This document shows positions 18,178 through 63,801 of a stretch of DNA of 64,000 nt, one piece after another. The stretch is from an uncultured Gammaproteobacteria bacterium (GTDB lineage: Bacteria; Patescibacteriota; Patescibacteriia; Magasanikbacterales; GWA2-37-8), in the NCBI GenBank assembly GCA_964496095.1, contig CAZBWU010000001.1, positions 185,474-249,473 of the forward strand, given 5' to 3'. The translations under genes were made by a program, and so were the position numbers. Under the pieces are notes generated by a model. It was not told the DNA's origin and did not search any database. It saw only the letters and a list, made by a program, of their open reading frames with translations. The first letter of the stretch is position 1. Every line of letters begins with the position of its first letter.

Positions 18178-18316
18178 TGTCATTCTGAGCTGAGCGAAGA
18201 ATCTCTGTCCGTGCAATTGTCATTCCCGCCAAAGCGGAAATCCAGACAATTTAAACACTGGATTCCCAATCAAGTTGGGAATGACAGAGATCCTTCGGCT
18301 ACGCTCAGGATGACAG
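18178..18316. repeat. Composite/nested copy of TGTCAT-TIR miniature element family (inner copy 18218-18286 with perfect 10-bp TIR TGTCATTCCC/GGGAATGACA)
   Basis: TGTCATTCTGAGC..GAAGAATCTCTGTCC module, then TGTCATTCCC...GGGAATGACA, then GAGATCCTTCGG...CTCAGGATGACAG; same modules recur at 11 other sites in the window. Confidence 0.8.
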
Positions 18317-18388
18317 GTAAATGTATGTCCGACCCCAGTACCAGAGCCACAAGAGTGGCTCGGTACGGGGCAAGTTTTGTTCACTATT

Positions 18389-21300
18389 ATGGATTTTGTC
18401 CATCTTCACGTTCATAGTCATTATTCTTTGCTTGATGCTCTGCCAAAAATAGACGAGCTAGTTGATCATGCCAAAAAACTTGGCTACAAATCTTTGGCTC
18501 TCACCGATCATGGTAACATGTATGGCACGATTGAGTTTTATGAGGCTTGTCAAAAAGCTGGCATCAAACCAATTATCGGGATGGAAGCATATCTAGTGGT
18601 AGGCAGTCGATTTGATAAAAATAATAGAGATGAAAAAATTTATCATCAAGTTCTTTTGGCTGAAAATAATATTGGTTATAAAAATTTGATGAAATTGGCG
18701 TCGCTGGCCAGTCTAGAGGGTTTTTCTGATAAGCCTCGTTTGGATAAAGAATTATTAAAACAATATCATGAAGGATTGGTTGCGCTTTCTGGATGTTTTG
18801 CCGGTGAAATTCCAACTATTTTACAAAGAGACGATAATTTTGATAAAGCCAAAAATGTAGCTTTGGAGTATCAAGAAATTTTTGGTAAAGATAATTTTTA
18901 TTTGGAACTAATGGATTTGCCTGCCTTGGAAGGTCAGATGGATATGAATACCAAGCTTATCCAATTATCGGCTGAGACAGGAATTCCAATGGTCGTCACT
19001 CGAGATTCTCATTATTTGGAAGAAGATGAAGCTGAGGCGCAAGATGTACTCACTTGTATTAGAGATGGTAAGACAATGGATGAGGATGGTCGAGCGACAA
19101 TGAACGGCGTAGATTATTCTCTCGCGCCTGCTAAAGAAATTATAAATCGTTTTAAGCATGTCCCAGAAGCGATTAGTAATACCGTAAAAATTGCCGACAG
19201 AGCGAATGTGACTATTGAATTAAATAAATGGCATTTTCCTCATCTAAATATTCCAGATGGCAAGACCGTTGATGAATACTTGCGAGAACAGGTTTATGAA
19301 AAATTGCCAAAGCGCATAGAGATGACCGAAGAAGTCAAAAAGCGCGCGGATTATGAGTTGGATATTATTGCTAAAAAAGGGTATTCGCCATATTTTCTCA
19401 CCGTGGCGGATTATATTAACTATGCCCGTGAGCATAGAATTATGGTGACCACTCGTGGTTCGGCAGCTGGCTCGGTAGTTTCTTTTGCGATGGGAATTGT
19501 GATGGATAATCCGCTTTATTTTAAACTTCCCTTTGAACGTTTTTTGAATCCGTTTCGTCCGAGTCCGCCTGATATTGACGGCGATTTTGCCGATGACAGA
19601 CGTGATGAGATGATTGCTTATGTGACCAAAAAGTATGGCGCAGACAAAGTGGCGCAGATTATTACGTTTGGGACAATGGCGGCTAGAGGTTCAGTGCGAG
19701 ATGTGGGTCGCGCGCTTGGTTATTCCTATTCTTTTTGTGATCAAATTTCCAAACTGATTCCTTTTGGCGCCCAAGGTTTTCAAATGACCATTGCCAAAGC
19801 ATTGACCTTGGAACCGGAATTAAAAAAACTATATGACAAGAACGCAGAGGTAAAACGTTTGCTTGATTTGGCGCAGAAGGTAGAAGGTTGCGCGCGCCAC
19901 ACTTCTATTCATGCAGCGGGAGTGGTTATCTCGCCAACGCCGCTGACAGATTTTACGCCTGTGCAACTTGAAACTGGTGGAGATAAAATCGTTACTCAGT
20001 ATGAAATGCATTCGGTAGAAACTGCCGGAGTTTTGAAGATGGACTTCTTGGGTATTCGCAACTTATCTATTTTAGGAAATGCAGTGGAGATAATCGAAAA
20101 AACTACTGACCAAAAAATAAATGTCTATAATTTGTATCCGTGGAATGACGCTAAGACATATGATATGTTGGCGCGCGGAGAGACTGTGGGTGTTTTTCAG
20201 TTAGCCAGTTCGGGTATGACAAGATATCTCAAAGAACTAAAGCCGAGCTCTATCTTTGATATCATGGCGATGGTAGCCCTTTTCCGTCCGGGTCCAATGG
20301 ATTCTATTCCTGACTATATTTTAAGAAAAAATAATCACGACCTGATAGAATACGAAGACCCAAGAATGAAAGATTATCTAGATCAATCTTTGGGGCTTAT
20401 TGTTTATCAAGATGATGTGTTGCTTACGGCTATAAATTTAGCAGGCTATAATTGGGAAGAAGCCGATAAGTTCCGCAAAGCCATGGGTAAAAAAATTCCT
20501 GAAGAAATGGCGAAACAAAAAGAGAAATTTTTTAAAGGGGCAAAAGAATTTGGAAAATTAACTAGTGAAACTATTAATAAACTTTGGGAACGCATTGAGC
20601 CTTTTGCGGCCTATGGTTTTAATAAAGCGCACGCTGCTAGTTATGCGGTCGTGGCGTATCAAACCGCTTATCTTAAGGCCAATTTTCCCGTGCAATATAT
20701 GACAGCGGTACTTATTGCCGAAAGTGGCGATATTGATAAGGTGCCAGAAATTATTCATGAATGTGAACGCATGGGCGTAAAAGTTTTGCCTCCTGATATT
20801 AATGAAAGCTTTAAGAGTTTTGCGATGACCCCAATAGCAGGGTCGCAGGAGCGACTCGCTACGGGGCAAGTTCCTTCTGCAGGTACGAGCGTAATTAGGT
20901 TCGGCTTAAATGGCATTAAAAATTTGGGTGAGAATATTGCCGAAGCAATTTACCAAGAACGTAAAGCCAATGGTAAATTCAAAGATCTGCAGGATTTTCT
21001 TACTAGAGTAAAAGATAAAGATTTAAATAAAAAATCTTTGGAAAGTTTGGCCAAGTGTGGAGCGTTGGATGGTTTTGGTTATGATAGGGGCGTACTATTG
21101 GCAAACATGGAAAACATTTTGTCATTTAGTAAACAAATAAAAGAAGGTGGCGCCAACACACAACATTCTTTGTTTTCCGGCACATCTTTAGACGCAGTTT
21201 CTGTATTAAAATTAGTAAATGCTAAGCCAGCCAACGAAGCCGATAAATTGACTTGGGAAAAAGAGTTGCTTGGTTTTTATATTACTTCACATCCTTTCAA

Positions 21301-21883: not shown

Positions 21884-23022
21884 TTATCAATCTTCCAATT
21901 TGGATCAGCGGTTATTTTATTCCAAGAAGTAAATTCTTTTTTTAGTGCATGGTGGTATCCAGCTGTGGCAATCATCGCGCCGTTATCCATGGCGTATTTT
22001 AATTCCGGAATTTGGAAACTAATTTCAGGGAATCTTTTGGTTATTTCTGTGGCTAAGGTTTCACGCAGTTTTTTGTTGGCGCTCACACCCCCACCTAAAA
22101 TAATAGTTTTGGGTTTATGCTCTTGCGCGGCTAGCATAGTTTTGACTACCAGTACATCAATAATTGCTTGTTCAAAACTAGCGCAAAAATCATTGATAGA
22201 AATGTTTGTGGCGACTTGTTTGTCATTCTGAGGAAGAGAAGCGATAGAAGAATCTATTCCTTTTAATTGAGATTGATTTGTTGTTTCGTTTAGGGTTGTA
22301 GGTAAAATGTGGTTATCCCTTAACCAATAAAGCGCTGAAGTTTTTAATCCTGAGAAACTAAAATTATAATCACCGCTATTTATCATCGGTCTAGGAAAGT
22401 TTATAGCATCAGTTTTGCCCTCTAAGGCAAGTTTGGAAATTTGTGGTCCGCCAGGATAGGTGAGGCCAATTAGTTTGGCCACTTTATCAAAACATTCACC
22501 AGCGGCGTCGTCTTTGGTAGAGCCAAGTATTTTGTAATCACCATGATTCTTCATGAGAATTAATTCGGTGTGTCCGCCACTAACGATTAAGGCTAGAGCC
22601 GGGAAATATATTTTTTTACTGTCATTCTGAGGGAGAGAAGCGGCTGAAGAATCTCTGTCTTGGATTTGTGTGGAGTATATGTGTCCTTCAATATGGTTGG
22701 TAGAAACAAGTGGAATATCCCAAGCATAAGAAAGAACGCGCGCGGCCTCAACGCCTACGAGCAGTCCCGTAATGAGTCCTGGCCCAGAAGTGACAGCTAT
22801 GGCGTCTGGCTTTGGTTGGTTTTCGAGCACTGCCTCAATAAGTGGGACGATTTTTTCCGCATGCATACGTCCAGCAATTTCTGGAACCACACCGCCATAT
22901 TTTTTATGCACATCAATTTGGGAAGCGGTTTTTTCTGATAAAACAAAACAGCCTTTGTCCGAACAATCGAGCAAGGCAATAGACGTGTCATCACAAGATG
23001 ATTCAATACCGAGGATTAGCAT
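21880..23022 (-). CDS. tsaD: tRNA N6-adenosine threonylcarbamoyltransferase TsaD
   Basis: 380 aa; MLILGIESSCDDTSIALL start, HxEGH metal motif (NHIEGHIY), SGGV..N motifs; contains two in-frame repeat-element insertions. Confidence 0.9.
   Translation of the reverse strand: MLILGIESSCDDTSIALLDCSDKGCFVLSEKTASQIDVHKKYGGVVPEIAGRMHAEKIVPLIEAVLENQPKPDAIAVTSGPGLITGLLVGVEAARVLSYAWDIPLVSTNHIEGHIYSTQIQDRDSSAASLPQNDSKKIYFPALALIVSGGHTELILMKNHGDYKILGSTKDDAAGECFDKVAKLIGLTYPGGPQISKLALEGKTDAINFPRPMINSGDYNFSFSGLKTSALYWLRDNHILPTTLNETTNQSQLKGIDSSIASLPQNDKQVATNISINDFCASFEQAIIDVLVVKTMLAAQEHKPKTIILGGGVSANKKLRETLATEITKRFPEISFQIPELKYAMDNGAMIATAGYHHALKKEFTSWNKITADPNWKIDN
22221..22260. repeat. TGTCAT-TIR element module, in-frame inside tsaD
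   Basis: TGTCATTCTGAGGAAGAGAAGCGATAGAAGAATCTATTCC; encodes extra peptide ...GIDSSIASLPQNDKQ... in TsaD. Confidence 0.8.
22620..22659. repeat. TGTCAT-TIR element module, in-frame inside tsaD
   Basis: TGTCATTCTGAGGGAGAGAAGCGGCTGAAGAATCTCTGTC; encodes extra peptide ...QDRDSSAASLPQNDSKK... after the HxEGH motif. Confidence 0.8.
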
Positions 23023-23027
23023 AGTTG

Positions 23028-23101
23028 TGTCAGGGGAGAGAGTTGAACTCTCGACCTCGGGGTTATGAATCCCGTGCTCTTACCAACTGAGCTACCCTGA
23101 C
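23028..23101 (-). tRNA. tRNA-Met (anticodon CAU; elongator Met or Ile2-lysidine type)
   Basis: Hand-folded cloverleaf: acceptor GTCAGGG/CCCTGAC, D-arm GCTC-AGTTGGTAA-GAGC, anticodon loop TTCATAA, T-arm GAGAG-TTCAACT-CTCTC, discriminator A; no encoded CCA. Confidence 0.8.
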
Positions 23102-23119
23102 CTGTCAAATGTAGTGATA

Positions 23120-23148: not shown

Positions 23149-23181
23149 CTTTGTCTCGATGTATGCTTAATTAAAGGCTTA

Positions 23182-23209: not shown

Positions 23210-23227
23210 ACTGGCACAAATAATGAC

Positions 23228-25169: not shown

Positions 25170-25186
25170 TCTCCCTAGCGAAATTT

Positions 25187-25216
25187 AAAAGTTTACCACC
25201 TGTCTCAATTAACCCC
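25187..25216. repeat. Cassette-boundary direct repeat copy A (AAAAGTTTACCACCTGTCTCAATTAACCCC)
   Basis: 18 nt after stop of 24684-25169; followed by hairpin AGTCCT...AGGACT. Confidence 0.8.
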
Positions 25217-25342
25217 ACAATCATGAAAAGCATCCAAAAGTGATGAAATTTTATTCCCTAGGTTTAATAGCAAGTCCTCTTTACTAAGGACTATATTTTA
25301 GCTATTATAAATAAAGTTTACTTATCCATTTATATTTATAAT

Positions 25343-25936: not shown

Positions 25937-25979
25937 CTTGATTTTTTATATATTAGGTAAGAGATTTGATCATTTACAG

Positions 25980-26009
25980 AAAAGTTTGCCACCTGTCTCG
26001 ATTAACCCT
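25980..26009. repeat. Cassette-boundary direct repeat copy B (AAAAGTTTGCCACCTGTCTCGATTAACCCT)
   Basis: 44 nt after stop of 25343-25936. Confidence 0.8.
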
Positions 26010-26026
26010 ACATAAACAGAAACCAC

Positions 26027-26050
26027 CCATTCACTGGATGGTTTTTTGTT
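26027..26050 (+). terminator. Rho-independent terminator
   Basis: CCATTCACTGGATGG hairpin followed by TTTTTTGTTT. Confidence 0.6.
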
Positions 26051-27037: not shown

Positions 27038-27039
27038 AT

Positions 27040-27069
27040 AAAAGTTTTCCACCTGTCTTGATTAACCCT
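27040..27069. repeat. Cassette-boundary direct repeat copy C (AAAAGTTTTCCACCTGTCTTGATTAACCCT)
   Basis: 3 nt after stop of 26159-27037. Confidence 0.8.
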
Positions 27070-27110
27070 GTAAAATAAAAAACACCCCGGTTAATCCAAG
27101 ATGTTTTTTG
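27058..27110. terminator. Bidirectional terminator-like hairpin between convergent genes
   Basis: CTTGATTAACC ... GGTTAATCCAAG inverted repeat (the 3' end of repeat C forms the left arm) followed by TTTTTT at 27104-27109. Confidence 0.45.
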
Positions 27111-29548: not shown

Positions 29549-29645
29549 ATGGTAAAAATTAAGAAAAAGATTAATATTTTGAATATTAACATCGAATTGT
29601 ATATTAAAATAGGGTTATTGTCAACCTTAACTATGTCCCCCCGAT

Positions 29646-29675
29646 AAAAGTTTGCCACCTGTCTTGATTAACCCT
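29646..29675. repeat. Cassette-boundary direct repeat copy D (AAAAGTTTGCCACCTGTCTTGATTAACCCT)
   Basis: 98 nt beyond the start codon of the minus-strand NHL gene, same orientation as copies A-C. Confidence 0.8.
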
Positions 29676-29795
29676 ATAACAGCAAAAAATTGAACTCTTT
29701 TATTTTTCTTATAATCTGTTAAACTTACTGAGTACGCGCTTACTTATTTGGGAATACTAAACTGCATTTTAGTATTATCATTTTTTATTTCATAT

Positions 29796-46934: not shown

Positions 46935-47675
46935 TTATTTTAAAGTATCTAAGTTAATAGCATTAGTTAGTAAGTAGTCACCAATCTGAGTACGAACCAA
47001 TTCTTGGCAAAAGGCGCCGGTGCCAAGCTTTTGGCCAAGGTCGTGAGCAAGGGTCCGGATATATGTTCCTGCCGAACATTGTACCTCTATTTTTAAAACA
47101 GGCCAAGTGTAATCCAAAAGTTTAATTTCATAAATTTCTATCTCGTTTGGTTGGCGTTCTACTTCTATGCCTTTGCGGGCGAGGGTGTATAATCTTTGGC
47201 CGTTTATTTTTTTAGCAGAAAACATCGGCGGGATTTGGAGTTGTTTGCCTGTAAAAGATTTTATTGCCTCTAGGATTTGCTCTTCGGTTATTGTTTTTGG
47301 GTTATTCGTTTTTTCTATTTTTCCAGTTTTGTCGTAAGTATCGCTAGTTTCTCCGAATTTGATGGTGGCAATATAAATTTTTTTCATTCTTTTAAATTCG
47401 TCTAAGTTTCTGGTAGATTCTCGTCCAACGCCGATAATTAATAATCCAGTGGCAAAAGGATCAAGTGTTCCTGCATGACCGACTCGGAGTTTTTTTGGGC
47501 TGTTATTCTGAGGCTCTGCCGAAGAATCCCTTTCGTTTGGTTTTAAGGGATCCTTTACGGAGTTTATCCCCTTTGGGGGGTTCAGGATGACACCGTTCCT
47601 AACTTTATTACGTACAAAAGCTACAGCATCAAAGCTGGTCCAACCTTCGGGTTTGTTGATGAGTAGGAATGACAT
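46935..47675 (-). CDS. truB: tRNA pseudouridine(55) synthase TruB
   Basis: 246 aa; catalytic motif GHAGTLDPFATG; contains an in-frame repeat-element insertion upstream of the catalytic Asp region. Confidence 0.88.
   Translation of the reverse strand: MSFLLINKPEGWTSFDAVAFVRNKVRNGVILNPPKGINSVKDPLKPNERDSSAEPQNNSPKKLRVGHAGTLDPFATGLLIIGVGRESTRNLDEFKRMKKIYIATIKFGETSDTYDKTGKIEKTNNPKTITEEQILEAIKSFTGKQLQIPPMFSAKKINGQRLYTLARKGIEVERQPNEIEIYEIKLLDYTWPVLKIEVQCSAGTYIRTLAHDLGQKLGTGAFCQELVRTQIGDYLLTNAINLDTLK
47501..47592. repeat. TGTCAT-TIR element copy, in-frame inside truB
   Basis: TGTTATTCTGAGGCTCTGCCGAAGAATCCC...GGGATCCTTTACGG...TTCAGGATGACA; encodes extra loop ...ILNPPKGINSVKDPLKPNERDSSAEPQNNSPKK... 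in TruB. Confidence 0.8.
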
Positions 47676-49814: not shown

Positions 49815-49922
49815 TGTCATTCCGAACCCTTATTTTTATGGGGTGAGGAATCTATTCCTATTAAATTATAAAATAATTCAGTATAGATCCCTCGTCGGCT
49901 ACGGCCTCGCTCGGGATGACAA
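49815..49922. repeat. TGTCAT-TIR element copy (intergenic infB-trxA)
   Basis: TGTCATTCCGAACCC...GAGGAATCTATTCC...GATCCCTCGTCGGCTACGGCCTCGCTCGGGATGACAA. Confidence 0.8.
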
Positions 49923-50411: not shown

Positions 50412-50460
50412 TGTCATTCTGAACAGAGTGAAGAATCCCTCCACTACGGTCGGGATGACA
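50412..50460. repeat. Minimal (49-nt) TGTCAT-TIR element copy immediately 5' of leuS
   Basis: TGTCATTCTGAACAGAGTGAAGAATCCCTCCACTACGGTCGGGATGACA - both termini present. Confidence 0.8.
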
Positions 50461-50469
50461 AAAAAATCT

Positions 50470-53400: not shown

Positions 53401-53556
53401 AAATTGCGCGATACGATAACGGTACAGGCTGATATCTCGGAGGAAGAAGCAAAGAAAATAGTTTTGGCTAGTGAGAAAATTCAGAAGTGGTTGGAAGGCA
53501 AAGAACCCAAGAAAATTATTTACGTAAAAGGGAAGTTGGTGAGTATGGTTGTTTAA
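50470..53556 (+). CDS. leuS: Leucine--tRNA ligase with inserted HAD-like domain
   Basis: 1028 aa from ATG 50470 (MKKYDPKKIEAKWQKYW; ORF track start 50428 lies inside the repeat element); HIGH-region (PYPSGEGLHVGH), editing domain (TTRPDT), KMSKS; extra about 200-aa HAD-like segment between VPAHDERDFDFA and the NYKLRDW region. Confidence 0.9.
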   Translation: MKKYDPKKIEAKWQKYWEKNKTFEVTEDPKREKFYGLIEFPYPSGEGLHVGHPRSNTAMDVISRKKRMEGKNVLFPIGFDAFGLPTENFAIKTGKPPAEVTKKNIANFTRQLKMLGFSFDWSRQVDTTDPQYYKWTQWLFLQFFKHGLAYKKNQPINWCPKDKIGLANEEVVGGCCERCGTPVETKNKEQWMLAITKYADKLLAGLKDVDYIERARLQQENWIGKSEGAEVVFPLRVSGQVDGKYTVKVFTTRPDTIFGATFIAISADLAKEWVGAGWSPSEEIKNYITEVLKVRTTTNTREEQEKTGVSAGVMAINPVSKEEIPVWITNYVMGGVGTGAIMGVPAHDERDFDFAKKFGLSVKQVVKNLNEKPKYLVFDFDGVIGDTIEEGVKVNMALDTISEEQARKNIHEYFSRKPSHAKGHTLTDDELEKRADWIKRYGEIMFKLNPPLFDDFIKAIKNISNIKIAVISAGSGLYIKNRMPETDLNPTHVLTYEDHHSKEQKIEQVCKDWGVSMQDVYYFTDTKADVYELENCLDRKKIIGCAWGYSGYDGLRELLPENQVLKNFTDINNLFTDGPYTEDGVAVNSDFLNGLKTDEAKIKMISWLEENKIGKKQINYKLRDWVFSRQRYWGEPIPLVYCEKCAGWIPLPESELPLKLPKVEKYQPTDNGESPLAAMEKWVKTKCPQCGGPARRETDTMPNWAGSSWYFLAYALGGEKGLKERGDKFWDKELLKQWMPIDWYNGGMEHTVLHLLYSRFWNIFLHDIGLVPTSEPYKKRTSHGMILAKGGEKMSKSKGNVVNPDEMVEQFGADALRTYIMFMGPFDQAVEWDTNGLIGVKRFLDKVWNYAIDRLPSVPKERRDTSALTKLHQTIKKVSEGIDSMKFNTAIASMMEFMNTIYKPLEDGKVVSEPAPLIGEQDFIKFLKLLSPFAPHMCEEIWSQLGNKNTLVFEPWPEYDEALTKESEITLAVQVNGKLRDTITVQADISEEEAKKIVLASEKIQKWLEGKEPKKIIYVKGKLVSMVV

Positions 53557-53916: not shown

Positions 53917-55545
53917 ATGCTCAAGGAGGGGCTAGAACAAATCATCAAGAGCAAAAGTAAAACATTTCTCGCGTTTTGTTTTTGTTTTATTTTAGGCGCA
54001 GGTATTTTTTCTTTGTTTGAAGGCAAAGAATTTTTGTTTTATCTCCATATTTTATTATTTGCAATTTTGTTTTTTGTTATTATCTTCTGGTCAAAAAAAG
54101 AGTATCGGTTTTATTGTCTATGTCTGTTAGTTTTTGTGTTAGGTGGAATTAGATTTTTCCTGACAATTCCTGGGAAAGATGCAGATAGGATAGATTTTTA
54201 TAATGGTAGTAAAAAGATTATTAAAGGGTTTGTGGTGCGTGAACCGGATATTGGAGTAAGTGATGCGAGGTATGTGGTGCGGGTAGAAGCAATCGCTAAT
54301 CAGCCTGTCATTACGATGACGAAGGAGGAATCTCTGTCCAAATCAAAAATTAGACAGAGATCCCTCCGGGGCGTAAACCCCACTCAGGATGACAATCAGA
54401 GAGAGCGAGCCTCGGGAAATATTATGATTAAGACGTTAATTTATCCCGAATATAAATATGGCGATCAATTGGAAGTTAGTTGCCTTCTTCAAGAACCAAC
54501 AAATTTTGCAGATAGTGATTTCAATTATAAAAAATATCTAGCCAAACAAGATGTGTGGTCAACTTGTGCCAATCCGCAAATAAAAAAGGTGGGTGCAGGT
54601 AAAGGCAATTTTTTTATCAGTGCAATGTTGAAAATGAAAAGTAGAATAACTTTGCAGATGGCCAAACTTTGGCCTGAGCCAAGCAATAGTCTGATGGCCG
54701 GGATTTTATATGGCGCTCGCAGCGGTTTGCCCGATGATTTAACAACTAATTTTAGTCGTACGGGTGTGACTCATATTGTCGCTGTTTCCGGATATAATGT
54801 GAGTATCATAGTTGTAGTTTTAAATTCAATTTTAATTTATCTTGGATTATTTCGTAAACAATCTTTTTGGTCCTTAGTATTTTTGATTTTAGCCTTTGTC
54901 TTTTTCACTGGCGCTACCGCTTCGGTCGTGCGAGCGGGAATAATGGCGGTGATTGTTTTATTGTCTCAATATTTGGGTCGGCTATCGGCGGTGGGTAGGG
55001 TACTTGTCTATGCGGTTGTGGTGATGCTTATTTTTAATCCCTATCTGTTGATGTGGGATGCGGGCTTTCAGTTATCATTCCTGTCTACTTTGGGGTTGGT
55101 TTATTTGGTGCCTATTTTTGAGCCATTGACTGAAAAGATAAAAGTGACTGGTACTAGCGTGATGTTACTTGAAGTTTTTACGACCACGATGGCTGCGATT
55201 ATGGCTACTATGCCGTTAATTATGCATCAGTTTGGGAGGTTTTCGGTGGTGGCGCCTTTAGTAAATATTTTGGTTTTGTGGATTATTCCTTGGCTGATGT
55301 TGTTTGGGTTTTTGTCTTTGATTTTAAGCCTTGTATTTTTTCCGTTGGGTCAGCTGGTTGCCTGGGTGGCGGGTTTGGGAGTACGATATGTTATAATTGT
55401 TGTAGATTGGTTTGGAAATAAAAGTTGGAGTGCGGTTGATATGAAGATTTCTTTATTAACGATGATATTTATTTATCTCGTACTTATACTTTTTGTCACC
55501 AAAAAGTATCAAAAAGTGTTGGGGCGGCAGAACTCGCCTCATTAA
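53917..55545 (+). CDS. comEC: ComEC/Rec2 competence channel protein (membrane part; DUF4131 + competence domain)
   Basis: 542 aa; many TM helices; competence-domain signature region GILYGARSGLPDDL...TGVTHIVAVSGYNVSII; carries in-frame repeat-element insertion. Confidence 0.8.
   Translation: MLKEGLEQIIKSKSKTFLAFCFCFILGAGIFSLFEGKEFLFYLHILLFAILFFVIIFWSKKEYRFYCLCLLVFVLGGIRFFLTIPGKDADRIDFYNGSKKIIKGFVVREPDIGVSDARYVVRVEAIANQPVITMTKEESLSKSKIRQRSLRGVNPTQDDNQRERASGNIMIKTLIYPEYKYGDQLEVSCLLQEPTNFADSDFNYKKYLAKQDVWSTCANPQIKKVGAGKGNFFISAMLKMKSRITLQMAKLWPEPSNSLMAGILYGARSGLPDDLTTNFSRTGVTHIVAVSGYNVSIIVVVLNSILIYLGLFRKQSFWSLVFLILAFVFFTGATASVVRAGIMAVIVLLSQYLGRLSAVGRVLVYAVVVMLIFNPYLLMWDAGFQLSFLSTLGLVYLVPIFEPLTEKIKVTGTSVMLLEVFTTTMAAIMATMPLIMHQFGRFSVVAPLVNILVLWIIPWLMLFGFLSLILSLVFFPLGQLVAWVAGLGVRYVIIVVDWFGNKSWSAVDMKISLLTMIFIYLVLILFVTKKYQKVLGRQNSPH
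54306..54394. repeat. TGTCAT-TIR element copy, in-frame inside comEC
   Basis: TGTCATTACGATGACGAAGGAGGAATCTCTGTCC...GACAGAGATCCCTCCGGGGCGTAAACCCCACTCAGGATGACAA; encodes ...EESLSKSKIRQRSLRGVNPTQDDNQ... Confidence 0.8.
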
Positions 55546-56828: not shown

Positions 56829-56831
56829 ACC

Positions 56832-58727: not shown

Positions 58728-59948
58728 ATGTCAGAGATAACAAAAGCAATTCAGATGTTATGCGAGGAAAAAGGTCTTTCTACCGAATCGGTCATGGAGG
58801 CAATTGAGTTTGCTTTAGCTGCTGCTTATCGCAAAGATTTTGGTAATAAACAGCAAAATATCAAAGTGCAATTCAATCCAGAAAACGGCGATATGAAAGC
58901 TTGGGATGTCAAAACGGTAGTAGAGGATATTTCTGAAGAAGATCTAGAAGCAGCTCAGACCGAGCTTGCAGCGCGACGTGAAAAAGCCAAGGAAGAAAAA
59001 AGAGAGTTGACTGAAGAAGAAACTGCGGATTTGGTTCACTTTAATCCAAAAACAGAATTGATGATTACCTCTGCCAAAGAGATTGATAAGAAAGTAAAAT
59101 TGGGAGAGGTGATGGAAATTCCTTTGGAGATTACCCATGAGTTTGGTCGTATGGCTGCTCAGACTGCCAAGCAGGTAATTATCCAAAAAATCCGTGAAGC
59201 GGAAAGAGGTATCATGTTTAATGACTTCAAAGGCCAAGAAGGCCAATTGGTTATGGGTACAATTCAGCGCGCTGAAGCTCGCAAAGTTTTGGTTGATTTT
59301 GGTAAAGTGACCGGTGTATTGTTAGCTGATCAACAAAATAGCCGTGATAGATATAAACCAGGCGCTCGCATGAAGTTTTATTTATTATCTGTACAGATGA
59401 GTCCTCGCGGACTTGAGGTTCTATTGTCTCGCAGTGATGTGGGTATGGTTCGTGAAATTTTCAAACAAGAAATTCCTGAAATTAATGATGGTCTAATAGA
59501 AATAAAAGGTGTGGCTCGTGAAGCCGGTTTCCGTTCCAAAGTATCTGTCTCAACCAATGACAAATCTATTGATCCAATCGGATCTTGTATCGGTCAAAGA
59601 GGTAGTAGAATAAACACTATTATTGAAGAGTTGGGCGGAGAAAAGATTGATATTATTCAGTATAGTGAAAATACGGCTGAATATATTGCTCACGCTTTGG
59701 CGCCAGCAAAAATCTTGAATGTAAAATTAGATGAAGCTAATAAAGTGGCGGAAGTGAGTGTGGCTGCCGATCAATTTTCTTTAGCCATTGGTCGTAGCGG
59801 ACAAAATGTACGTCTCGCTGCTGATATGACTGGTTGGAGAATAGATGTGGTTGAAGATGGAGGTAAGCAGGAACTATCCAGTGATGAAGTGAAAGCGGAA
59901 GAAGTCGCTCCTGAAGTTGTTGAGGTAGAAGAAAAAAAGGAGGAGTAA
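58728..59948 (+). CDS. nusA: Transcription termination/antitermination protein NusA
   Basis: 406 aa; N-terminal RNAP-binding domain, S1 domain, two KH domains (GxxG: IGQRGSRI, IGRSGQNV), acidic tail. Confidence 0.92.
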   Translation: MSEITKAIQMLCEEKGLSTESVMEAIEFALAAAYRKDFGNKQQNIKVQFNPENGDMKAWDVKTVVEDISEEDLEAAQTELAARREKAKEEKRELTEEETADLVHFNPKTELMITSAKEIDKKVKLGEVMEIPLEITHEFGRMAAQTAKQVIIQKIREAERGIMFNDFKGQEGQLVMGTIQRAEARKVLVDFGKVTGVLLADQQNSRDRYKPGARMKFYLLSVQMSPRGLEVLLSRSDVGMVREIFKQEIPEINDGLIEIKGVAREAGFRSKVSVSTNDKSIDPIGSCIGQRGSRINTIIEELGGEKIDIIQYSENTAEYIAHALAPAKILNVKLDEANKVAEVSVAADQFSLAIGRSGQNVRLAADMTGWRIDVVEDGGKQELSSDEVKAEEVAPEVVEVEEKKEE

Positions 59949-59968
59949 ATTTAAATAATTAAAGCGTT

Positions 59969-60062
59969 TGTCATCCCGAGCGAGCCCTCAAGGGCGACGA
60001 GGGATCTTTCCGAGAAAGAGTTCTACTAACGGAAAGATTCTTCACTCCGTTCAGAATGACAG
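59969..60062. repeat. Full-length (94-nt) TGTCAT-TIR element copy (intergenic nusA-yidC)
   Basis: TGTCATCCCGAGCGAGCCCTCAAGGGCGACGAGGGATCTTTCCGAG...CGGAAAGATTCTTCACTCCGTTCAGAATGACAG; about 94 percent identical to 62676-62768. Confidence 0.85.
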
Positions 60063-60080
60063 TTAACCATTAACTTCTCT

Positions 60081-60833: not shown

Positions 60834-60862
60834 TTAGTAGTCGGCATTAGGCAAATACGCGT

Positions 60863-61126
60863 ATGATAATTAATCTTCAAAAATTTTTACGCTTGCCGGT
60901 GTATACGGAATCAGGTATTAAGCTTGGTAAAATTGTTGATTTTGAAATGGATGTTGATAGTCAGACAGTGGTGCGATATTATGTTCGGCCAATTTTGTTT
61001 AGTGTAAAATCTTTTCTGATTCAGAATAGCCAAATCAAAGAAATTAAGGATGATAAGATAGTAGTCTATGATAGTGTTGTTTCCGACTATCAAGGCAAAA
61101 CTTCGGGTATGGCTTTAGAAGAGTAA
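60863..61126 (+). CDS. PRC-barrel domain protein (YlmC/YmxH-like)
   Basis: 87 aa; LPVYTESGIKLGKIVDFEMD pattern typical of small PRC-barrel proteins. Confidence 0.5.
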   Translation: MIINLQKFLRLPVYTESGIKLGKIVDFEMDVDSQTVVRYYVRPILFSVKSFLIQNSQIKEIKDDKIVVYDSVVSDYQGKTSGMALEE

Positions 61127-61131
61127 AATCT

Positions 61132-62187
61132 ATGAATACTTCCGACTCTTTGCAATTATCGCTAAAAAAAACTTTGGCCTATTTTGATTTAGCTAATTTC
61201 CCATTGACCAAAGAAGAGTTGTATAATTTTTTGTGGGAACCGCCACAGGTTAGTTACGCTGAATTCCTGTTGTCATTGCGAGACTACACCTTTGGTGAAG
61301 GCGAAGCAATCCCACTGTTTGGTAGTGCTAACAATGGGATTGCCGCGTCGTCTCAAAAAATTGGGACTCCTCGCAATGACACAGTGAAGTCGTTCATGAT
61401 GACAGAGCAAAATGGTTATTATTTTTTATCTGGCAGAGAAGAATTGGTTGAGACCAGGCGTTGTCGGTTGCTTATTTCTGAAAATAAATTAAAGATTGCG
61501 CGTCGAGCGGCTAGGATAGTACGGTCCGTGCCATTTTTAAAAGCGATTTTTGTCTGCAATACTGTAGGTGCGGAGCAGGCAACAGAGGATAGTGATATTG
61601 ATTTTTTTATTGTAACTGAAAAAAACAGGATTTGGATTGCCCGATTGTGGGTGACTTTTTTGTTAGGACTTTTTAGATTAAGGCGAGTAAATAATCGCAT
61701 TAAGAATAAAATTTGTTTGAGTTTTTATGTGACGGCCGATAGTCTGAATCTGGCGAATTTAAGAGTGGTTGATGACGATATTCACTTTGCTTATTGGATT
61801 AATCAGATGTTACCACTATATGACCCAGAAAATTATTATGCCAAATTTTTACAAGCCAATAGTTGGACAAAAAAATATTTGCCTAATATAAAATCTGAGA
61901 AAATGAGTTCGTATATTTTTAAGATTAGCGAATCAAAGTTAGGCAGAGTTTGGAAAAGAGCTTGGGAAAAAATGTGGACTGGCGCTTATGGTGATTTGAT
62001 TAATGGTGAAGCTAAAAAAATTCAGATTTCAAAGATGAAGTTTTCCGGCAAGAAAATAGTTAGGGGAGAAGATAAGGGTGTAGTTATTTCTGATCAGATT
62101 TTGAAGTTTCACGAAAAGGATACAAGGTTGGAATATAGAGAGGCTTGGTTAAATAAAGTTAATGTTATTCCGAACGAAGGAGCTTGA
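61132..62187 (+). CDS. Hypothetical protein with Pol-beta-type nucleotidyltransferase motif
   Basis: 351 aa; G[AS]x9-13 DxD pattern (VGAEQATEDSDIDFFIV). Confidence 0.4.
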   Translation: MNTSDSLQLSLKKTLAYFDLANFPLTKEELYNFLWEPPQVSYAEFLLSLRDYTFGEGEAIPLFGSANNGIAASSQKIGTPRNDTVKSFMMTEQNGYYFLSGREELVETRRCRLLISENKLKIARRAARIVRSVPFLKAIFVCNTVGAEQATEDSDIDFFIVTEKNRIWIARLWVTFLLGLFRLRRVNNRIKNKICLSFYVTADSLNLANLRVVDDDIHFAYWINQMLPLYDPENYYAKFLQANSWTKKYLPNIKSEKMSSYIFKISESKLGRVWKRAWEKMWTGAYGDLINGEAKKIQISKMKFSGKKIVRGEDKGVVISDQILKFHEKDTRLEYREAWLNKVNVIPNEGA

Positions 62188-62200
62188 GCGATTGAGTTGA

Positions 62201-62300
62201 GCCTGCCTGCGGTAGGCAGGGAATCCCTTAAACACGGTATTTGCAATTACTATGCATAAGGGATCTTTCGACTCAGCTAAAGCCTCGCTCAAGATGACAA
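62201..62300. repeat. Hairpin (CCTGCC..GGCAGG) plus TGTCAT-TIR element module (intergenic)
   Basis: GGGAATCCCTTAAACA...ATAAGGGATCTTTCGACTCAGCTAAAGCCTCGCTCAAGATGACAA; same module as 63218-63304. Confidence 0.75.
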
Positions 62301-62307
62301 CAAACGT

Positions 62308-63801
62308 ATGATTCTTAAAAAAATAGAAAATTTATTATTGTTAGCCTTTTTGTTTTTATTGCCTTGGCAAACTAGATATATCTGGCAGGAAGGGCAATTG
62401 AGCGGCGGGCATTGGGAGTATGGCACGTTTAGTATTTATGGGACCGAGATTTTGCTTTGGATAATTATTTTATTATTTTTTTTTCGTCATTTGTTTAATA
62501 AAGAAATGCGGCAGGGCTTTTTAACTAAAAAGAAGTTTTTTATTTTTCCAGTTATTTTTTTAGGGTTAATATGGTTGTCGCTTGGTTTCAGTGAAAATTT
62601 TTGGGTGTCATATCAGTATGTATTTAGATGGTTGGGGGCGATAGCCATGGCGATTGTGTTAACCAACCACACAAATGTCATCCCGAGCGAGCCCTCAAGG
62701 GCGACGAGGGATCTTTCCGAGAAAGAGCCTGTTAACGGAAAGATTCTTCACTCTGTTCAGAATGACAGTAAATTGTTTGCCTTATGGCTTAGCGCTGTAG
62801 TCCAAGGCCTGCTGGCAGTTTATCAATTTTTAACTCAGCATGTCTTTGCGAGTAAGTGGTTGGGAATGTCGGCGCAAGATGCGATGCAGGGCGGAGCGAG
62901 TGTGGTGGAGTTTGCAGATCAAAGATGGCTGCGCGCTTATGGTAGTTTTGGTTCGCCAAATTCTTTGGGGATATATTTGGCAGTGTTGTTAGTCTTGGGT
63001 TTTATTTTATATGTTAAAACCGAACGACCGTTTTATAAAATTTTAATTAGTGTCGGGCAATTAATTATTTTATCTGGCTTGCTGTTTTCTTTTTCTCGAG
63101 GAGCCTGGCTATCGGCTATAGTGGGCATAATTTGTTTGGCTGTCATTGTTTTTGTTGCCGGCTGTCATTCTGAGCAAGGCGAAGAATCTCTGTCCAACCA
63201 CTTGTCATTCCGACCGAAGTGGAGGAATCCCTTAAACAAAATACTTGCAAAGACGATGGATAAGGGATCCCTCGGCTTCGCTACGGTTCCGCTCGAGATG
63301 ACAATGCGAAAAGATTTTATTAAACAAGTTATTTTTATTTTAGTCTTAACTGGTTTTTGGGTAGGAATATTTTTTCCTATATTTAGCGCGCGATTTAATA
63401 TTCATAATCGGTTAGAAGTTTATTCTATCGCTGAAAGACAAAGCCAATATAAAGAATCTTTATCATTTATAAAGAACAAACCATTTTTTGGAGTAGGGCC
63501 AGCTCTCTATACATATACAGTCTCAAAAAAATATCCTAAATTAGCCTCATGGCAATTCCAGCCGGTTCATAATATTTATGTGTTGGCTGCGGTGGATTTC
63601 GGTGTTGTTTTTGTATTATTTTTGGGTTTAATTTTCTTAAGTTTAATTAAAAAAGTTTTTAAAAATAATCTTATTTTTCTTCCAGTTTTATTTACCTTGC
63701 TTATGGCCGGGCTCTTCGACCACTGGCTTTTTAGCATGTTTACAGGCCTTGTTTTTTACTGGGCTATTATTGGTTTAGGACAGGATAAGGTGAACTCTTG
63801 A
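62308..63801 (+). CDS. O-antigen ligase/polymerase (Wzy_C)-like integral membrane protein
   Basis: 497 aa; about 10 TM helices; periplasmic loop with FSRGAWLS-type Wzy_C signature; two in-frame repeat-element insertions. Confidence 0.6.
   Translation: MILKKIENLLLLAFLFLLPWQTRYIWQEGQLSGGHWEYGTFSIYGTEILLWIIILLFFFRHLFNKEMRQGFLTKKKFFIFPVIFLGLIWLSLGFSENFWVSYQYVFRWLGAIAMAIVLTNHTNVIPSEPSRATRDLSEKEPVNGKILHSVQNDSKLFALWLSAVVQGLLAVYQFLTQHVFASKWLGMSAQDAMQGGASVVEFADQRWLRAYGSFGSPNSLGIYLAVLLVLGFILYVKTERPFYKILISVGQLIILSGLLFSFSRGAWLSAIVGIICLAVIVFVAGCHSEQGEESLSNHLSFRPKWRNPLNKILAKTMDKGSLGFATVPLEMTMRKDFIKQVIFILVLTGFWVGIFFPIFSARFNIHNRLEVYSIAERQSQYKESLSFIKNKPFFGVGPALYTYTVSKKYPKLASWQFQPVHNIYVLAAVDFGVVFVLFLGLIFLSLIKKVFKNNLIFLPVLFTLLMAGLFDHWLFSMFTGLVFYWAIIGLGQDKVNS
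62676..62768. repeat. TGTCAT-TIR element copy (93 nt = 31 codons), in-frame inside Wzy-like gene
   Basis: Near-identical to intergenic copy 59969-60062; encodes ...VIPSEPSRATRDLSEKEPVNGKILHSVQNDSK... Confidence 0.85.
63163..63304. repeat. Composite TGTCAT-TIR element copy (142 nt), in-frame inside Wzy-like gene
   Basis: TGTCATTCTGAGCAAGGCGAAGAATCTCTGTCC + TGTCATTCCGACC...GGAATCCCTTAAACA...GGGATCCCTCGGCTTCGCTACGGTTCCGCTCGAGATGACAA; encodes ...CHSEQGEESLSNHLSFRPKWRNPLNKILAKTMDKGSLGFATVPLEMTMRKD... Confidence 0.85.

What the first reader, a model, noticed from the sequence alone, without database searches (positions are those of the whole stretch)
18178..63304. Previously unnamed family of miniature TGTCAT...ATGACA inverted-repeat elements, at least 12 copies in 64 kb, half of them in-frame inside conserved genes
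Self-comparison of the window shows a recurring short element of about 40-140 nt. Its ends form an imperfect 11-bp terminal inverted repeat (TGTCATYCYGA ... TCRGRATGACA). Its interior is built from a few GC-rich, self-complementary modules: GAAGAATCTCTGTCC, RGGGATCCCTCGG, GAGCCCTCAAGGGC, GGGGCGAACCCC and GATCTTTCCG...CGGAAAGATC. Copies or composites, in both orientations, lie at 1-70, 18178-18316 (nested, with a perfect 10-bp TIR inner copy at 18218-18286), 22221-22260, 22620-22659, 47501-47592, 49815-49922, 50412-50460 (minimal 49-nt copy carrying both termini), 54306-54394, 59969-60062, 62201-62300, 62676-62768 and 63163-63304. Together they make up about 1.2 kb, roughly 2 percent of the window, which is a very high density. 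Six copies sit inside long ORFs (tsaD twice, truB, comEC, the Wzy-like gene twice) without introducing a stop or frameshift, and they translate into hydrophilic S/P/N/D/K/E-rich peptides. In behaviour this resembles Rickettsia palindromic elements (RPEs) or Correia-like MITEs, which also spread into coding sequence in-frame. I do not recognise the sequence as any named family. They could be selfish MITEs, RNA-level regulatory hairpins, or recombination sites.
Basis: partly seen in the sequence, partly recalled or inferred. Interest (0 to 1): 0.88.

Follow-up and report, generated by a model that had tools for sequence, protein, structure and literature searches.

The report
TGTC-tagged REP hairpin repeats in Parcubacteria
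The repeats are real, but they belong to an already described superfamily of small palindromic DNA repeats (the CGTC/TGTC-tagged REPs, which include Neisseria dRS3 and Rickettsia RPE-4/-6), here found at high density in a tiny candidate-phyla-radiation genome, with seven insertion sites lying in-frame in protein loops.

Summary
The window holds 27 hairpin units at 13 sites, about 1.2 kb or 1.9% of the sequence. Each unit has an unpaired TGTC tag, a stem opening A-T/T-A, usually a GA/GA internal loop and a variable apical mini-hairpin, and a C(Y)C tail. Most sites are inverted doublets with the tags outward. Seven sites lie in-frame in tsaD (two), truB, comEC, ORF 61132-62187 and a Wzy-like gene (two).

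The "previously unnamed MITE family" reading is not supported. The anatomy matches the CGTC-tagged REP superfamily of Di Nocera et al. 2013. Its named members include Neisseria dRS3 (the REPIN master sequence) and Rickettsia RPE-4 and RPE-6. There are no target-site duplications.

A 26-nt unit pattern recurs in at least 120 species genomes from about 20 phyla and in 113 viral-contig stretches.

Relatives about 90% identical in flanking DNA have empty sites, short decayed remnants, or different variants at the same sites. Two copies in the window are 95% identical. The elements therefore turn over quickly.

No transposase lies in the window, and one Y1 transposase family tested is not flanked by units. 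How the elements move remains unknown.

Verdict: a new member of a known kind, in a new host lineage (Parcubacteria). Moderate interest.

The parts
1..71 (-). Partial composite cut by the window edge. It holds two tandem units: 39-71 (tag TATC, stem ATCCC/GGGAT, apical GTGGGG-TTCG-CCCC) and 3-27 (dRS3-like, ATTCTCGC-AACA-GCGGGAAT). It lies just 3' of the RadA-like ORF 81-1427(-).
   Evidence: Pfam for the neighbouring ORF
18178..18315 (.). Nested composite between ORF 17689-18075 and dnaE. Outer inverted pair: 18178-18203 (+) and 18289-18315 (-). Inner dRS3-like inverted pair: 18218-18242 (+) and 18261-18286 (-).
   Evidence: ssDNA fold -36.4 kcal/mol, z = -7.9; left part 82% identical to 63163-63223 (D6)
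22221..22260 (+). Single unit inside tsaD (gene on the - strand), encoding TsaD aa 255-268 (GIDSSIASLPQNDK). The adjacent sequence up to about 22310 looks like the decayed partner unit.
   Evidence: pLDDT <50 for aa 241-270
22620..22659 (+). Single unit inside tsaD, encoding TsaD aa 122-135 (DRDSSAASLPQNDS).
   Evidence: 13-residue gap in E. coli TsaD at this point; absent in orthologs P0002, P0003 and P0005-P0011; pLDDT <50 for aa 122-133
47501..47592 (.). Inverted doublet inside truB (- strand), encoding TruB aa 28-59. It sits between the N-terminal DKP...TS motif and the GHxGTLDP motif.
49815..49921 (.). Inverted doublet in the infB-thioredoxin intergenic spacer. It starts 11 nt after the infB stop codon.
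50412..50460 (.). Minimal 49-nt doublet whose two units overlap at their tails, immediately upstream of leuS. The mechanical GTG ORF start lies inside it; the real start is probably downstream.
54306..54394 (.). Inverted doublet inside comEC, encoding ComEC aa 130-160. It has a palindromic spacer CTCTGTCC...GACAGAG.
   Evidence: fold z = -4.7; absent from relative L239, whose ComEC is 514 aa against 542
59969..60061 (.). Inverted doublet in the nusA-yidC spacer. It is 94.6% identical to 62676-62767, and all but one of the differences lie in the central spacer.
   Evidence: (D8, D15); site empty in L239 (21-nt spacer) and occupied by a different variant in L240
61271..61381 (.). Inverted doublet of the TGTCATTGCGAG variant inside ORF 61132-62187 (aa 47-84).
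   Evidence: fold -31.2 kcal/mol, z = -7.8; L239 and L240 carry only a 26-nt remnant, T(G/A)TCATTG...AATG(A/C)C, at this site
62163..62299 (.). Inverted doublet that spans the stop codon of ORF 61132-62187 and fills the spacer before the Wzy-like gene. Its right half and spacer are 77% identical to 63224-63304.
   Evidence: (D5); absent in L239 and present in L240
62676..62767 (.). Inverted doublet inside the Wzy-like gene (aa 123-154). It is a near-copy of 59969-60061.
   Evidence: L239 has a 48-nt decayed remnant here and L240 a different variant
63163..63303 (.). Three-unit composite inside the Wzy-like gene (aa 286-332): 63163-63188 (+), 63203-63229 (+) and 63266-63303 (-).
   Evidence: (D5, D6); absent in L239; L240 has only the two inner units

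Best explanation
These are REP-type palindromic repeat units of the CGTC/TGTC-tagged superfamily. That superfamily includes Neisseria dRS3/NIME/REPIN units and Rickettsia RPE-4 and RPE-6. The host is a Parcubacteria genome whose nearest named relatives are Candidatus Magasanikbacteria.

Anatomy. Each unit has an unpaired 5' tag TGTC, a basal stem that always opens A-T, T-A and covaries after that, usually a symmetric GA/GA internal loop, a variable apical mini-hairpin (often GCGNAGC or GCGAAAGC), and a short C(Y)C or CCA tail. Most units sit as inverted doublets with the tags outward, and these can fold into one long hairpin (REPIN-like). Some are nested or composite.

Behaviour. They act as non-autonomous, fast-turnover selfish DNA. 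They fill short spacers between co-directional genes. They also survive inside genes where the insert is a multiple of three, is free of stop codons, and falls in a tolerant surface loop.

Shown here: family identity, copy structure, the in-frame loop insertions, and gain, loss and replacement between genomes about 90% identical.

Inferred, not shown: the copying step. The most likely route is action on the folded single-stranded DNA hairpin by a trans-acting enzyme. An HUH/Y1 RAYT-like transposase has been proposed for the Neisseria member. Recombination or conversion between copies would add to this and would explain repeated re-occupation of the same sites.

Confidence is about 0.85 for what the elements are and about 0.3 for a RAYT-like enzyme as the mobiliser.
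For: Structure and statistics. Stem covariation is seen in the window and in 680 units from other genomes, with pairs ATTCT/AGAAT, ATCCT/AGGAT, ATCCC/GGGAT, ATTGC/GCAAT and ATTCCCAA/TTGGGAAT. Doublets fold far better than shuffles, with z down to -7.9.

Match to the published definition (PMC3733652): tag CGTC often changed to TGTC; stems 'almost invariably' starting with complementary A-T residues; 3-nt tails; inverted dimers predominant; intragenic in-frame copies; dRS3 = CGTC-1; RPE-6 and RPE-4 = CGTC-1 and CGTC-4.

The Neisseria REPIN master sequence ATTCCCGCGCAGGCGGGAATC is linked to a Group 2 RAYT (bioRxiv 10.1101/2021.07.10.451892).

Distribution: the 26-nt pattern is found in 113 viral-contig stretches and at least 120 species genomes from about 20 phyla, against about 0.07 expected by chance. 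The same three subtypes co-occur in those genomes.

Insertion status.

Turnover: BLAST alignments with relatives break exactly at the elements. Sites are empty, reduced to remnants, or hold a different variant. The L239 relative has 0 intact units in 21 kb of syntenic DNA, where the window has about 12. Two copies in the window are 94.6% identical.

No target-site duplications, which fits single-strand Y1-type chemistry (own knowledge of IS200/IS605).

GCGAAGC and GCGAAAGC are known, exceptionally stable DNA mini-hairpin sequences (own knowledge, work of Hirao and colleagues).
Against: No Y1/HUH or any other transposase lies in the 64-kb window or in about 66 kb of DNA from close relatives.

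Di Nocera et al. found no transposase gene flanked by CGTC repeats.

An Acidobacteria-type Y1 transposase family found on unit-bearing contigs is not flanked by units. In 80 metagenome loci only 1 dubious hit lies within 400 bp.

Most window units depart from the stem 8-9 bp / loop 4-5 nt geometry of the four published CGTC families. They have a 5-bp basal stem, a GA/GA loop and a variable apical hairpin.

The two single units in tsaD do not fold better than shuffles. They are probably decayed.
Confidence: 0.75

Rival explanations
1. They spread without a dedicated transposase. Copies would propagate and be 'refreshed' by homologous recombination or gene conversion between elements through their conserved arms. 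Fold-back or template-switch replication at the stable DNA hairpins would contribute, using only host replication and repair enzymes.
For: The same loops or spacers are occupied by different variants in close relatives, while other relatives keep short remnants that still begin TGTCAT and end ATGAC. In the 94.6%-identical pair the arms are almost identical and the central spacer differs. Composite left halves are shared between 18178-18238 and 63163-63223 (D6). No transposase is associated with the units here or in the literature. The doublets are near-perfect long palindromes including their spacers.
Against: Conversion alone cannot create insertions at naive sites. Truly empty sites exist in L239 at nusA-yidC, ORF-wzy, wzy site 2 and comEC. 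The near-identical unit sequence across about 20 phyla is easier to explain if a conserved protein recognises it. In Neisseria, REPIN decay follows RAYT inactivation.
Confidence: 0.2
2. They are primarily functional RNA or DNA hairpins kept by selection, such as transcription attenuators or terminators, mRNA stabilisers or processing sites, or binding sites for a nucleoid protein. On this view they are not selfish mobile DNA.
For: The intergenic copies sit in short spacers between co-directional genes, typically just after a stop codon. Stems covary so that pairing is kept. REPs in E. coli are reported to affect mRNA stability and termination (PMC6006769 and PMC12306157).
Against: Presence, absence and variant differ between genomes about 90% identical. 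About half of the sites are in coding sequence in unrelated proteins. Both orientations occur. No T-run follows the hairpins. There is no Rfam match. Di Nocera et al. argue that the uneven family sizes rule out a general function.
Confidence: 0.1
3. They are classical MITEs: deletion derivatives of a DDE-transposase insertion sequence, moved through their terminal inverted repeats.
For: The elements are 40-140 nt long with 11-nt inverted ends, in many copies.
Against: None of the 10 doublets has a consistent target-site duplication. Single units exist. The 'TIR' is the tag plus stem of a hairpin unit, and its inner positions covary with a partner within the same arm. No insertion sequence or transposase is in the window. 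The unit matches a published REP superfamily.
Confidence: 0.04
4. The peptide segments are ancestral protein sequence, and the DNA similarity among them is coincidental.
For: None beyond the intact reading frames.
Against: E. coli TsaD and T. maritima TruB lack the segments. Orthologs 74-88% identical lack them or carry other variants. The same DNA also occurs in intergenic sites.
Confidence: 0.01

Closest known systems
CGTC-tagged REP superfamily, families CGTC-1 to CGTC-4 (Di Nocera, De Gregorio, Rocco 2013, BMC Genomics 14:522; PMC3733652)
   Same: Unpaired 5' tetranucleotide tag (CGTC, often TGTC). Stem opening with A-T, T-A. Short 3' tail (CCA-like). Mostly inverted dimers with spacers of 20-100 bp, some of them structured. 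In-frame intragenic copies. No flanking transposase gene. Several subtypes coexist in one genome.
   Different: Most units here have a 5-bp basal stem, a GA/GA internal loop and a variable apical hairpin (total loop region 11-53 nt), rather than 8-9 bp stems with 4-5 nt loops. The tail is mostly CTC or CCC. The host phylum (Patescibacteria) is not among the five phyla reported. Density is very high for a small genome.
Neisseria dRS3 repeats, NIMEs and Neisseria REPINs
   Same: Units at 18218-18242, 18261-18286 and 3-27 fit ATTCCC-N8/9-GGGAAT with a (C/T)GTC tag and CCA tail, as does the Neisseria master sequence ATTCCCGCGCAGGCGGGAATC. Both show mosaic or nested arrangement with repeated spacers.
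   Different: In Neisseria the elements are intergenic arrays and are linked to a Group 2 RAYT, NMAA_0235. Here no RAYT is seen in the available DNA, and the dRS3-like subtype is the minority.
Rickettsia palindromic elements (RPE-4 and RPE-6, which are CGTC-4 and CGTC-1)
   Same: Palindromic repeats inserted in-frame in housekeeping genes of a reduced genome, adding short hydrophilic loops. Related peptide signatures occur: VIPxxAGI, SFPxxxES and ...RFRGND in Rickettsia; VIPSE..., SFRPK..., ...QND and ...GMT here and in relatives.
   Different: The host lineage differs, and so does the dominant subtype (TGTCATTCTGAGC-N3-GCGAAGAATC). RPE-1, the classic 100-150-nt RPE, is a different sequence.
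E. coli and Pseudomonas REP/BIME/REPIN-RAYT systems (GTAG-tagged)
   Same: A hairpin with a 5' tetranucleotide tag. Inverted doublets as the likely replicating unit. No target-site duplication. Fast divergence between relatives.
   Different: The tag is TGTC rather than GT[AG]G. No cognate RAYT flanked by units (REPtron) has been found. The sequence is shared across many phyla instead of being species-specific.
Correia/NEMIS, RUP, ERIC and other bacterial MITEs
   Same: Small, abundant and non-coding, with inverted ends; sometimes co-transcribed or inserted in genes.
   Different: Those elements have true TIRs bound by DDE transposases and create target-site duplications (TA for Correia; own knowledge). 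Neither feature is seen here.

Membership tests
CGTC-tagged REP superfamily (PMC3733652) | Unpaired tetranucleotide tag CGTC (variants TGTC, CCTC) at the 5' foot of the hairpin | tested here: met
   24 of 27 units start TGTC; the others start TGTT (2) or TATC (1). In 680 units from other genomes the base before GTC is T in 85% and C in 7%, although the seed pattern required T.
CGTC-tagged REP superfamily (PMC3733652) | Stem whose first two pairs are A-T and T-A | tested here: met
   All credible units read TGTC-AT...AT-C.
CGTC-tagged REP superfamily (PMC3733652) | Short unpaired 3' tail (consensus CCA) | tested here: met
   The dRS3-like units end CCA. The others end CTC, CCC or CTT. Across 680 units: position +1 is C in 100% (required by the search), +2 is T 67% / C 25%, +3 is C 49%.
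CGTC-tagged REP superfamily (PMC3733652) | Units mostly paired in inverted orientation with a spacer of 20-100 bp, able to fold as one hairpin | tested here: met
   10 of 13 sites are inverted doublets or composites with the tags outward. Fold z-scores range from -1.4 to -7.9.
Families CGTC-1 to CGTC-4 specifically | Stem 8-9 bp and loop 4-5 nt | tested here: inconclusive
   Met by three units (18218-18242, 18261-18286, 3-27), which look like CGTC-1. Not met by the other 24 units, which have a 5-bp basal stem, a GA/GA loop and a variable apical part. The paper's Figure 2 consensus sequences are not held, so assignment to families 2-4 could not be checked. The authors state that further classes with bulges probably escaped them.
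REPIN-RAYT system | Two inverted REPs forming a hairpin, present as a population of similar copies | tested here: met
REPIN-RAYT system | A cognate RAYT (Y1/HUH) gene in the same genome, flanked by the REPs | not testable with these tools
   Only 64 kb of a contig of at least 457 kb is available. No Y1 homolog is in the window or in L235-L240 and Pfam finds no transposase. A Y1 family from unit-bearing contigs is not flanked by units in 80 loci.
REPIN-RAYT system (canonical) | GT[AG]G guide tetranucleotide | tested here: not met
   The tag is TGTC.
MITE (DDE-transposase derived) | Target-site duplication flanking the element | tested here: not met
   The flanks of the 10 doublets show no consistent direct repeat.
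MITE (DDE-transposase derived) | A parent insertion sequence with the same terminal inverted repeats | not testable with these tools
   None in the window. The rest of the genome is not available.
Neisseria dRS3 | 20-nt ATTCCC-N8-GGGAAT inverted repeat | tested here: inconclusive
   18265-18285 reads ATTCCCAATCAAGTTGGGAAT on the + strand, which is N9. 18222-18241 is ATTCCCGCCAAAGCGGAAAT, with one mismatch. These are near-matches only. Exact ATTCCCGCGAAAGCGGGAAT occurs in other fetched genomes.
Rickettsia palindromic elements | Palindromic repeat inserted in-frame in functional ORFs | tested here: met
   Seven in-frame sites. The inserts are absent from orthologs and from solved homologs.
Any Rfam RNA family | Covariance-model match | tested here: not met
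   Only two tRNAs reach the gathering score. Nothing relevant appears at E <= 10 in 47-64 kb.

The most novel reading that the evidence does not exclude
TGTC-tagged hairpin units could be a single, near-universal prokaryotic replicator with no transposase of its own. The same 26-nt unit occurs in about 20 bacterial phyla, in a DPANN archaeal bin and on phage contigs. On this reading the units are copied by conserved host single-strand DNA machinery acting on GCGNAGC-type mini-hairpins, and they home into remnants of earlier copies. Phages would carry them between phyla. A Parcubacteria genome of a few hundred genes, in which the elements are clearly active, would be the smallest background in which to identify that machinery. 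It would also show routine remodelling of the loops of essential proteins by selfish DNA.
Probability: 0.15. Interest if true: 0.75.

Novelty: new member of a known kind. Interest (0 to 1): 0.45.

Why it matters
The finding extends a little-studied repeat superfamily. CGTC-tagged REPs were reported from five phyla in 2013. Here they appear in the candidate phyla radiation and, through the pattern scan, in about 20 phyla and on phage contigs.

How CGTC-tagged REPs move is an open question, because no transposase has ever been found next to them. A very small genome in which the elements are demonstrably turning over would narrow the list of candidate enzymes.

The data also give clean natural examples of selfish DNA adding disordered loops to essential proteins (TsaD, TruB, ComEC). 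The same loops are hit repeatedly in different lineages.

In practice, these repeats explain part of the length variation and the 'low-complexity inserts' of CPR proteins, and probably some assembly breaks in such genomes.

Tried and rejected
- Rfam, at gathering threshold and at E <= 10: only two tRNAs and chance-level hits.
- Full-text search for 12-nt ends of the element: only unrelated primer sequences. Longer unit strings led to the Neisseria REPIN paper.
- Hammerhead-like reading of GTC|A...CUGA...GAA. Rejected by inspection, since the CUGANGA core is absent, and by the lack of any Rfam hit.
- Guilt by association. All ORFs of at least 80 aa from 233 unit-bearing loci (1.85 Mb) were clustered. 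No recurrent transposase-like family was found; the only large clusters are structural genes of one phage group.
- E. coli RayT searched by phmmer against six-frame translations of the window and all loci. Two weak hits appeared on viral contigs and none next to units. The same search on the close relatives found nothing.
- REPtron test. 80 metagenome loci encoding the Y1 transposase family seen on L020 were fetched. Units are not enriched near the gene: 1 dubious hit within 400 bp.
- Target-site duplication and target-motif search in the flanks: nothing consistent beyond a pyrimidine-rich 5' flank.
- Attempts to name the source organism by exact protein look-up gave only Logan and NCBI record hints. 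Taxonomy rests on the names of homologs.
- The nearest-neighbour DNA fold of the single tsaD units is not better than shuffles. The energy model handles tandem G-A pairs poorly, and these copies look decayed.

Full report
**Observation**

- The end motif TGTCATYCYGA (at most 1 mismatch) occurs 31 times, against 3.0 +/- 1.8 in dinucleotide shuffles.
- Reading every copy shows that the '11-bp terminal inverted repeat' is not the basic feature. The basic feature is a hairpin unit of 25-63 nt.
- The unit has an unpaired tag TGTC, then a stem that always opens A-T, T-A followed by three covarying pairs. The pairs seen are ATTCT/AGAAT, ATCCT/AGGAT, ATCCC/GGGAT, ATTCC/GGAAT and ATTGC/GCAAT.
- After the stem there is usually a symmetric GA...GA internal loop, then a variable apical part, then the tail C(Y)C.
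- A search for just this skeleton (GTCAT + xyz ... z'y'x'AT + C) gives 19 hits, 18 of them real, against 1.2 in shuffles.
- A relaxed scan plus inspection gives 27 units at 13 sites, about 1200 nt or 1.9% of the window.
- Two sites are single units (both in tsaD). One is a half-composite cut by the window edge. Ten are inverted doublets or nested/composite forms with the tags outward.
- As single-stranded DNA the doublets fold into one long hairpin, much better than shuffles for the intact ones. Examples: 18178-18315 at -36.4 kcal/mol, z = -7.9; 61271-61381 at z = -7.8; 54306-54394 at z = -4.7.

Corrections to the list:
- There is an additional doublet at 61271-61381.
- The '62201' copy starts at 62163.
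- Seven sites are intragenic, not six.

**Host and context**

- The window is 38% G+C. It encodes compact housekeeping genes: radA-like, clpB-like, pheS/pheT, dnaE, tsaD, RNase Y, truB, infB, trx, leuS, comEC, nusA, yidC and a Wzy-like protein.
- The best homologs of TsaD and Wzy that carry a name come from Parcubacteria/Patescibacteria, several from Candidatus Magasanikbacteria.
- Pfam finds no transposase, integrase or HUH protein in the window. E. coli RayT finds nothing in a six-frame search.

**The coding copies are insertions**

- Translation shows that all seven intragenic sites are in-frame and stop-free.
- Against E. coli TsaD, the first tsaD unit falls in a 13-residue gap. The second lies in a roughly 40-residue stretch that matches only 8 residues of the solved protein.
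- In TruB the 32-residue insert sits between the N-terminal motif and GHxGTLDP, where T. maritima TruB has nothing.
- Among 25 TsaD orthologs (65-88% identical), the closest ones (P0002, P0003, P0005-P0011) lack the site-1 unit.
- Other orthologs carry independent single or double units of other subtypes at exactly the same two loops. Examples are VILNNVKDP...RDSSAKPQND in P0012, which its near relative P0015 lacks, and VIASHSEAIP...IAASLKAPRND in P0021.
- The Wzy-like protein behaves the same way at both of its sites.
- An AlphaFold2 model of TsaD (mean pLDDT 73.9) has pLDDT below 50 at residues 122-133 and 241-270. These are the inserts, which lie between well-predicted secondary-structure elements.

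**Turnover between close relatives**

Contigs from two relatives were recovered: L237/L239 from ERZ27249659, and L240 from GCA_964363685.1. Their flanking genes are about 79-92% identical to the window at DNA level.
- BLAST alignments break exactly at the elements.
- In L239 the nusA-yidC spacer is 21 nt, against 132 nt in the window.
- The ORF-wzy spacer, wzy site 2 and the comEC site are empty in L239.
- At wzy site 1 and in ORF 61132, L239 keeps 26-48-nt remnants that still begin T(G/A)TCAT and end ...ATGAC or ...GAATA.
- L240 has elements at most of these sites, but of different variants.
- In tsaD, which is 91% identical overall, the two insert regions are essentially unalignable. L237 carries a complete doublet where the window has one intact and one decayed unit.
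- In 21 kb of syntenic DNA, L239 has no intact unit, while the window and L240 have about 12 each.
- Within the window, the intergenic copy 59969-60061 and the coding copy 62676-62767 are 94.6% identical, and all but one of the differences lie in the central spacer.
- The composite left half 18178-18238 recurs at 63163-63223 with 82% identity.

The elements are therefore gained, lost, degraded and replaced much faster than the surrounding genes diverge. The same sites are re-used.

**What they are**

Rfam has no match, and short end-sequence searches of the literature gave nothing. Longer unit strings hit a paper giving ATTCCCGCGCAGGCGGGAATC as the master REP of Neisseria REPINs, tied to a Group 2 RAYT. 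That lead pointed to Di Nocera et al. 2013 (PMC3733652). They define a CGTC-tagged REP superfamily with these features:
[quoted passage not shown] - Tails are 3 nt long and close to CCA.
- Inverted dimers predominate, with spacers of 20-100 bp that are often structured.
- In-frame intragenic copies exist.
- No transposase gene is associated.

Neisseria dRS3 is CGTC-1. R. conorii RPE-6 and RPE-4 are CGTC-1 and CGTC-4, with encoded peptides such as SFPRKRES, VIPAKAGI and DSRFRGND.

The window units meet the tag, AT-stem, tail and dimer criteria. Three units (18218-18242, 18261-18286, 3-27) are dRS3/CGTC-1-like. The majority have a shorter basal stem, a GA/GA loop and a variable apical hairpin. 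This does not fit the 8-9 bp / 4-5 nt geometry of the four published families. The authors themselves expected further, bulged classes. I therefore file the elements in the superfamily, with most units in unassigned sub-families.

In the held library, no listed paper combines REP or REPIN terms with Patescibacteria.

**Distribution**

- The pattern TGTCATTCYGAGCNNNGCGARGAATC (21 fixed and 2 two-fold positions) is expected about 0.07 times by chance in 596 Gb on both strands (my arithmetic).
- The hosts span about 20 phyla. They include cultured Bacteroidota (Pedobacter, Mucilaginibacter, Lacinutrix), Acidobacteriota, Chloroflexota, Nitrospirota, Firmicutes, Proteobacteria, Planctomycetota, Verrucomicrobiota and three CPR lineages.
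- One Nanoarchaeota bin also has it. That is a short contig, so binning error cannot be excluded.
- In those loci the same three subtypes co-occur as in the window, again mostly as inverted pairs.
- The commonest apical sequences are GCGAAGC, GCGCAGC, GCGTAGC and GCGGAGC (that is, GCGNAGC), and GCGAAAGC.
- From my own knowledge, these are the classic 'extraordinarily stable' DNA mini-hairpin sequences described by Hirao and colleagues. That points to a role for the folded single-stranded DNA form.

**Mechanism**

What is shown is the identity, the structure, the insertion status and the rapid turnover. What is inferred is how copies are made.
- The anatomy is a guide tetranucleotide at the foot of a hairpin, with inverted doublets and no target-site duplication. 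This is the anatomy of substrates of HUH/Y1 enzymes (IS200/IS605 TnpA, RAYTs; PMC6006769).
- In Neisseria, REPIN decay follows RAYT frameshifts.
- Against this, no Y1 gene is in the DNA available here.
- The 2013 survey found no transposase flanked by CGTC repeats.
- My own test of one Y1 family found on unit-bearing contigs was negative in 80 loci.
- Repeated occupation of the same sites by different variants, remnants that retain the element ends, and arm-specific identity suggest that recombination or conversion between copies contributes.

I rate 'a trans-acting HUH/Y1-like enzyme on single-stranded hairpins' at about 0.3. I rate 'host machinery plus conversion only' at about 0.2. The remainder is undecided.

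A primary RNA function is unlikely, given the presence/absence variation, the coding copies, both orientations, and the lack of terminator-like T-runs. A DDE-type MITE is disfavoured by the absence of target-site duplications and by the unit structure.

**Verdict**

The finding is a correct and careful observation whose novelty claim does not hold. The elements are members of a described superfamily, and the RPE analogy is in fact a family relationship. Four things are new here:
- the host lineage, a small Parcubacteria genome with about 2% of a 64-kb stretch made of units;
- the dominance of sub-families with a GA/GA loop and long apical hairpins;
- clear evidence of recent activity and of site re-use;
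- a much wider phylogenetic and phage distribution than the five phyla reported in 2013.

The unresolved mobilisation mechanism gives the finding moderate interest. A genome this small would be a good place to look for the enzyme.

Noticed in passing
window 50428-53556 (LeuRS aa 391-544): The leucyl-tRNA synthetase carries a HAD-like hydrolase domain (PF13419, E = 2.4e-9) inserted directly after the editing domain. The protein is 1042 aa long.
   Followed up: no
window 18331-18376 and 20827-20872: A second, unrelated palindromic repeat (GACCCC...hairpin...GGGGC, 46 nt, 80% identical) with compensatory stem changes between the two copies. One copy lies just upstream of the dnaE start. The other is inside dnaE, in the HHH_6 region, which is about 18 residues longer than the Pfam model (D13, 9, 66).
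   Followed up: partly
window 25185-25254, 25978-26047, 27038-27107, 29644-29688: A conserved 45-74-nt motif (AAAAGTTTGCCACCTGTCTYGATTAACCC...) lies just after the stops of three consecutive hypothetical ORFs with no Pfam hit, and again between the NHL-repeat gene and ORF 29748. No Rfam match (D2/D3, 43, 67).
   Followed up: partly
IMG/VR loci L002-L114: 113 viral-contig stretches carry the 26-nt unit, often several per contig. 35 of these loci share the same phage structural genes (for example a 590-aa sheath-like protein). One phage group is therefore rich in these units and could carry them between hosts.
   Followed up: partly
L237 3648-7033: In the close relative, the region upstream of tsaD holds an AAA_25 ATPase and two large serine recombinases that are absent from the window. 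This is probably an integrated element.
   Followed up: no
alignment A1 (TsaD orthologs), columns 70-115 and 300-370: The same TsaD loops host other recurrent insert classes that are not TGTC units. Examples are KLSAMHVNPFNLPAGVFGQ in seven orthologs, and SPLGRGG/KGGRKG-type segments after residue about 70. These may be further repeat families.
   Followed up: no
window 58728-59948 (NusA aa 3-160): The NusA N-terminal domain spans 158 residues against a 119-position Pfam model. This implies an insert of about 40 residues that is not encoded by a TGTC unit.
   Followed up: no
window 50450-50470 and 62163-62190: Element ends may supply gene signals. The terminal ATGACA of the 50412-50460 doublet offers an in-frame ATG just upstream of leuS. 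The stop codon of ORF 61132-62187 lies inside the 62163-62299 doublet.
   Followed up: no
L149 (Nanoarchaeota MAG contig, 3.8 kb): Six hits to the unit skeleton, of several subtypes, occur on a contig binned as DPANN archaeon. This is either genuine archaeal carriage or a mis-binned bacterial contig.
   Followed up: no
window 27125-29548: An 807-aa NHL-repeat beta-propeller protein is built from nine DNA repeats of about 183-195 nt, 61-87% identical to the reference copy (D1, 43).
   Followed up: no
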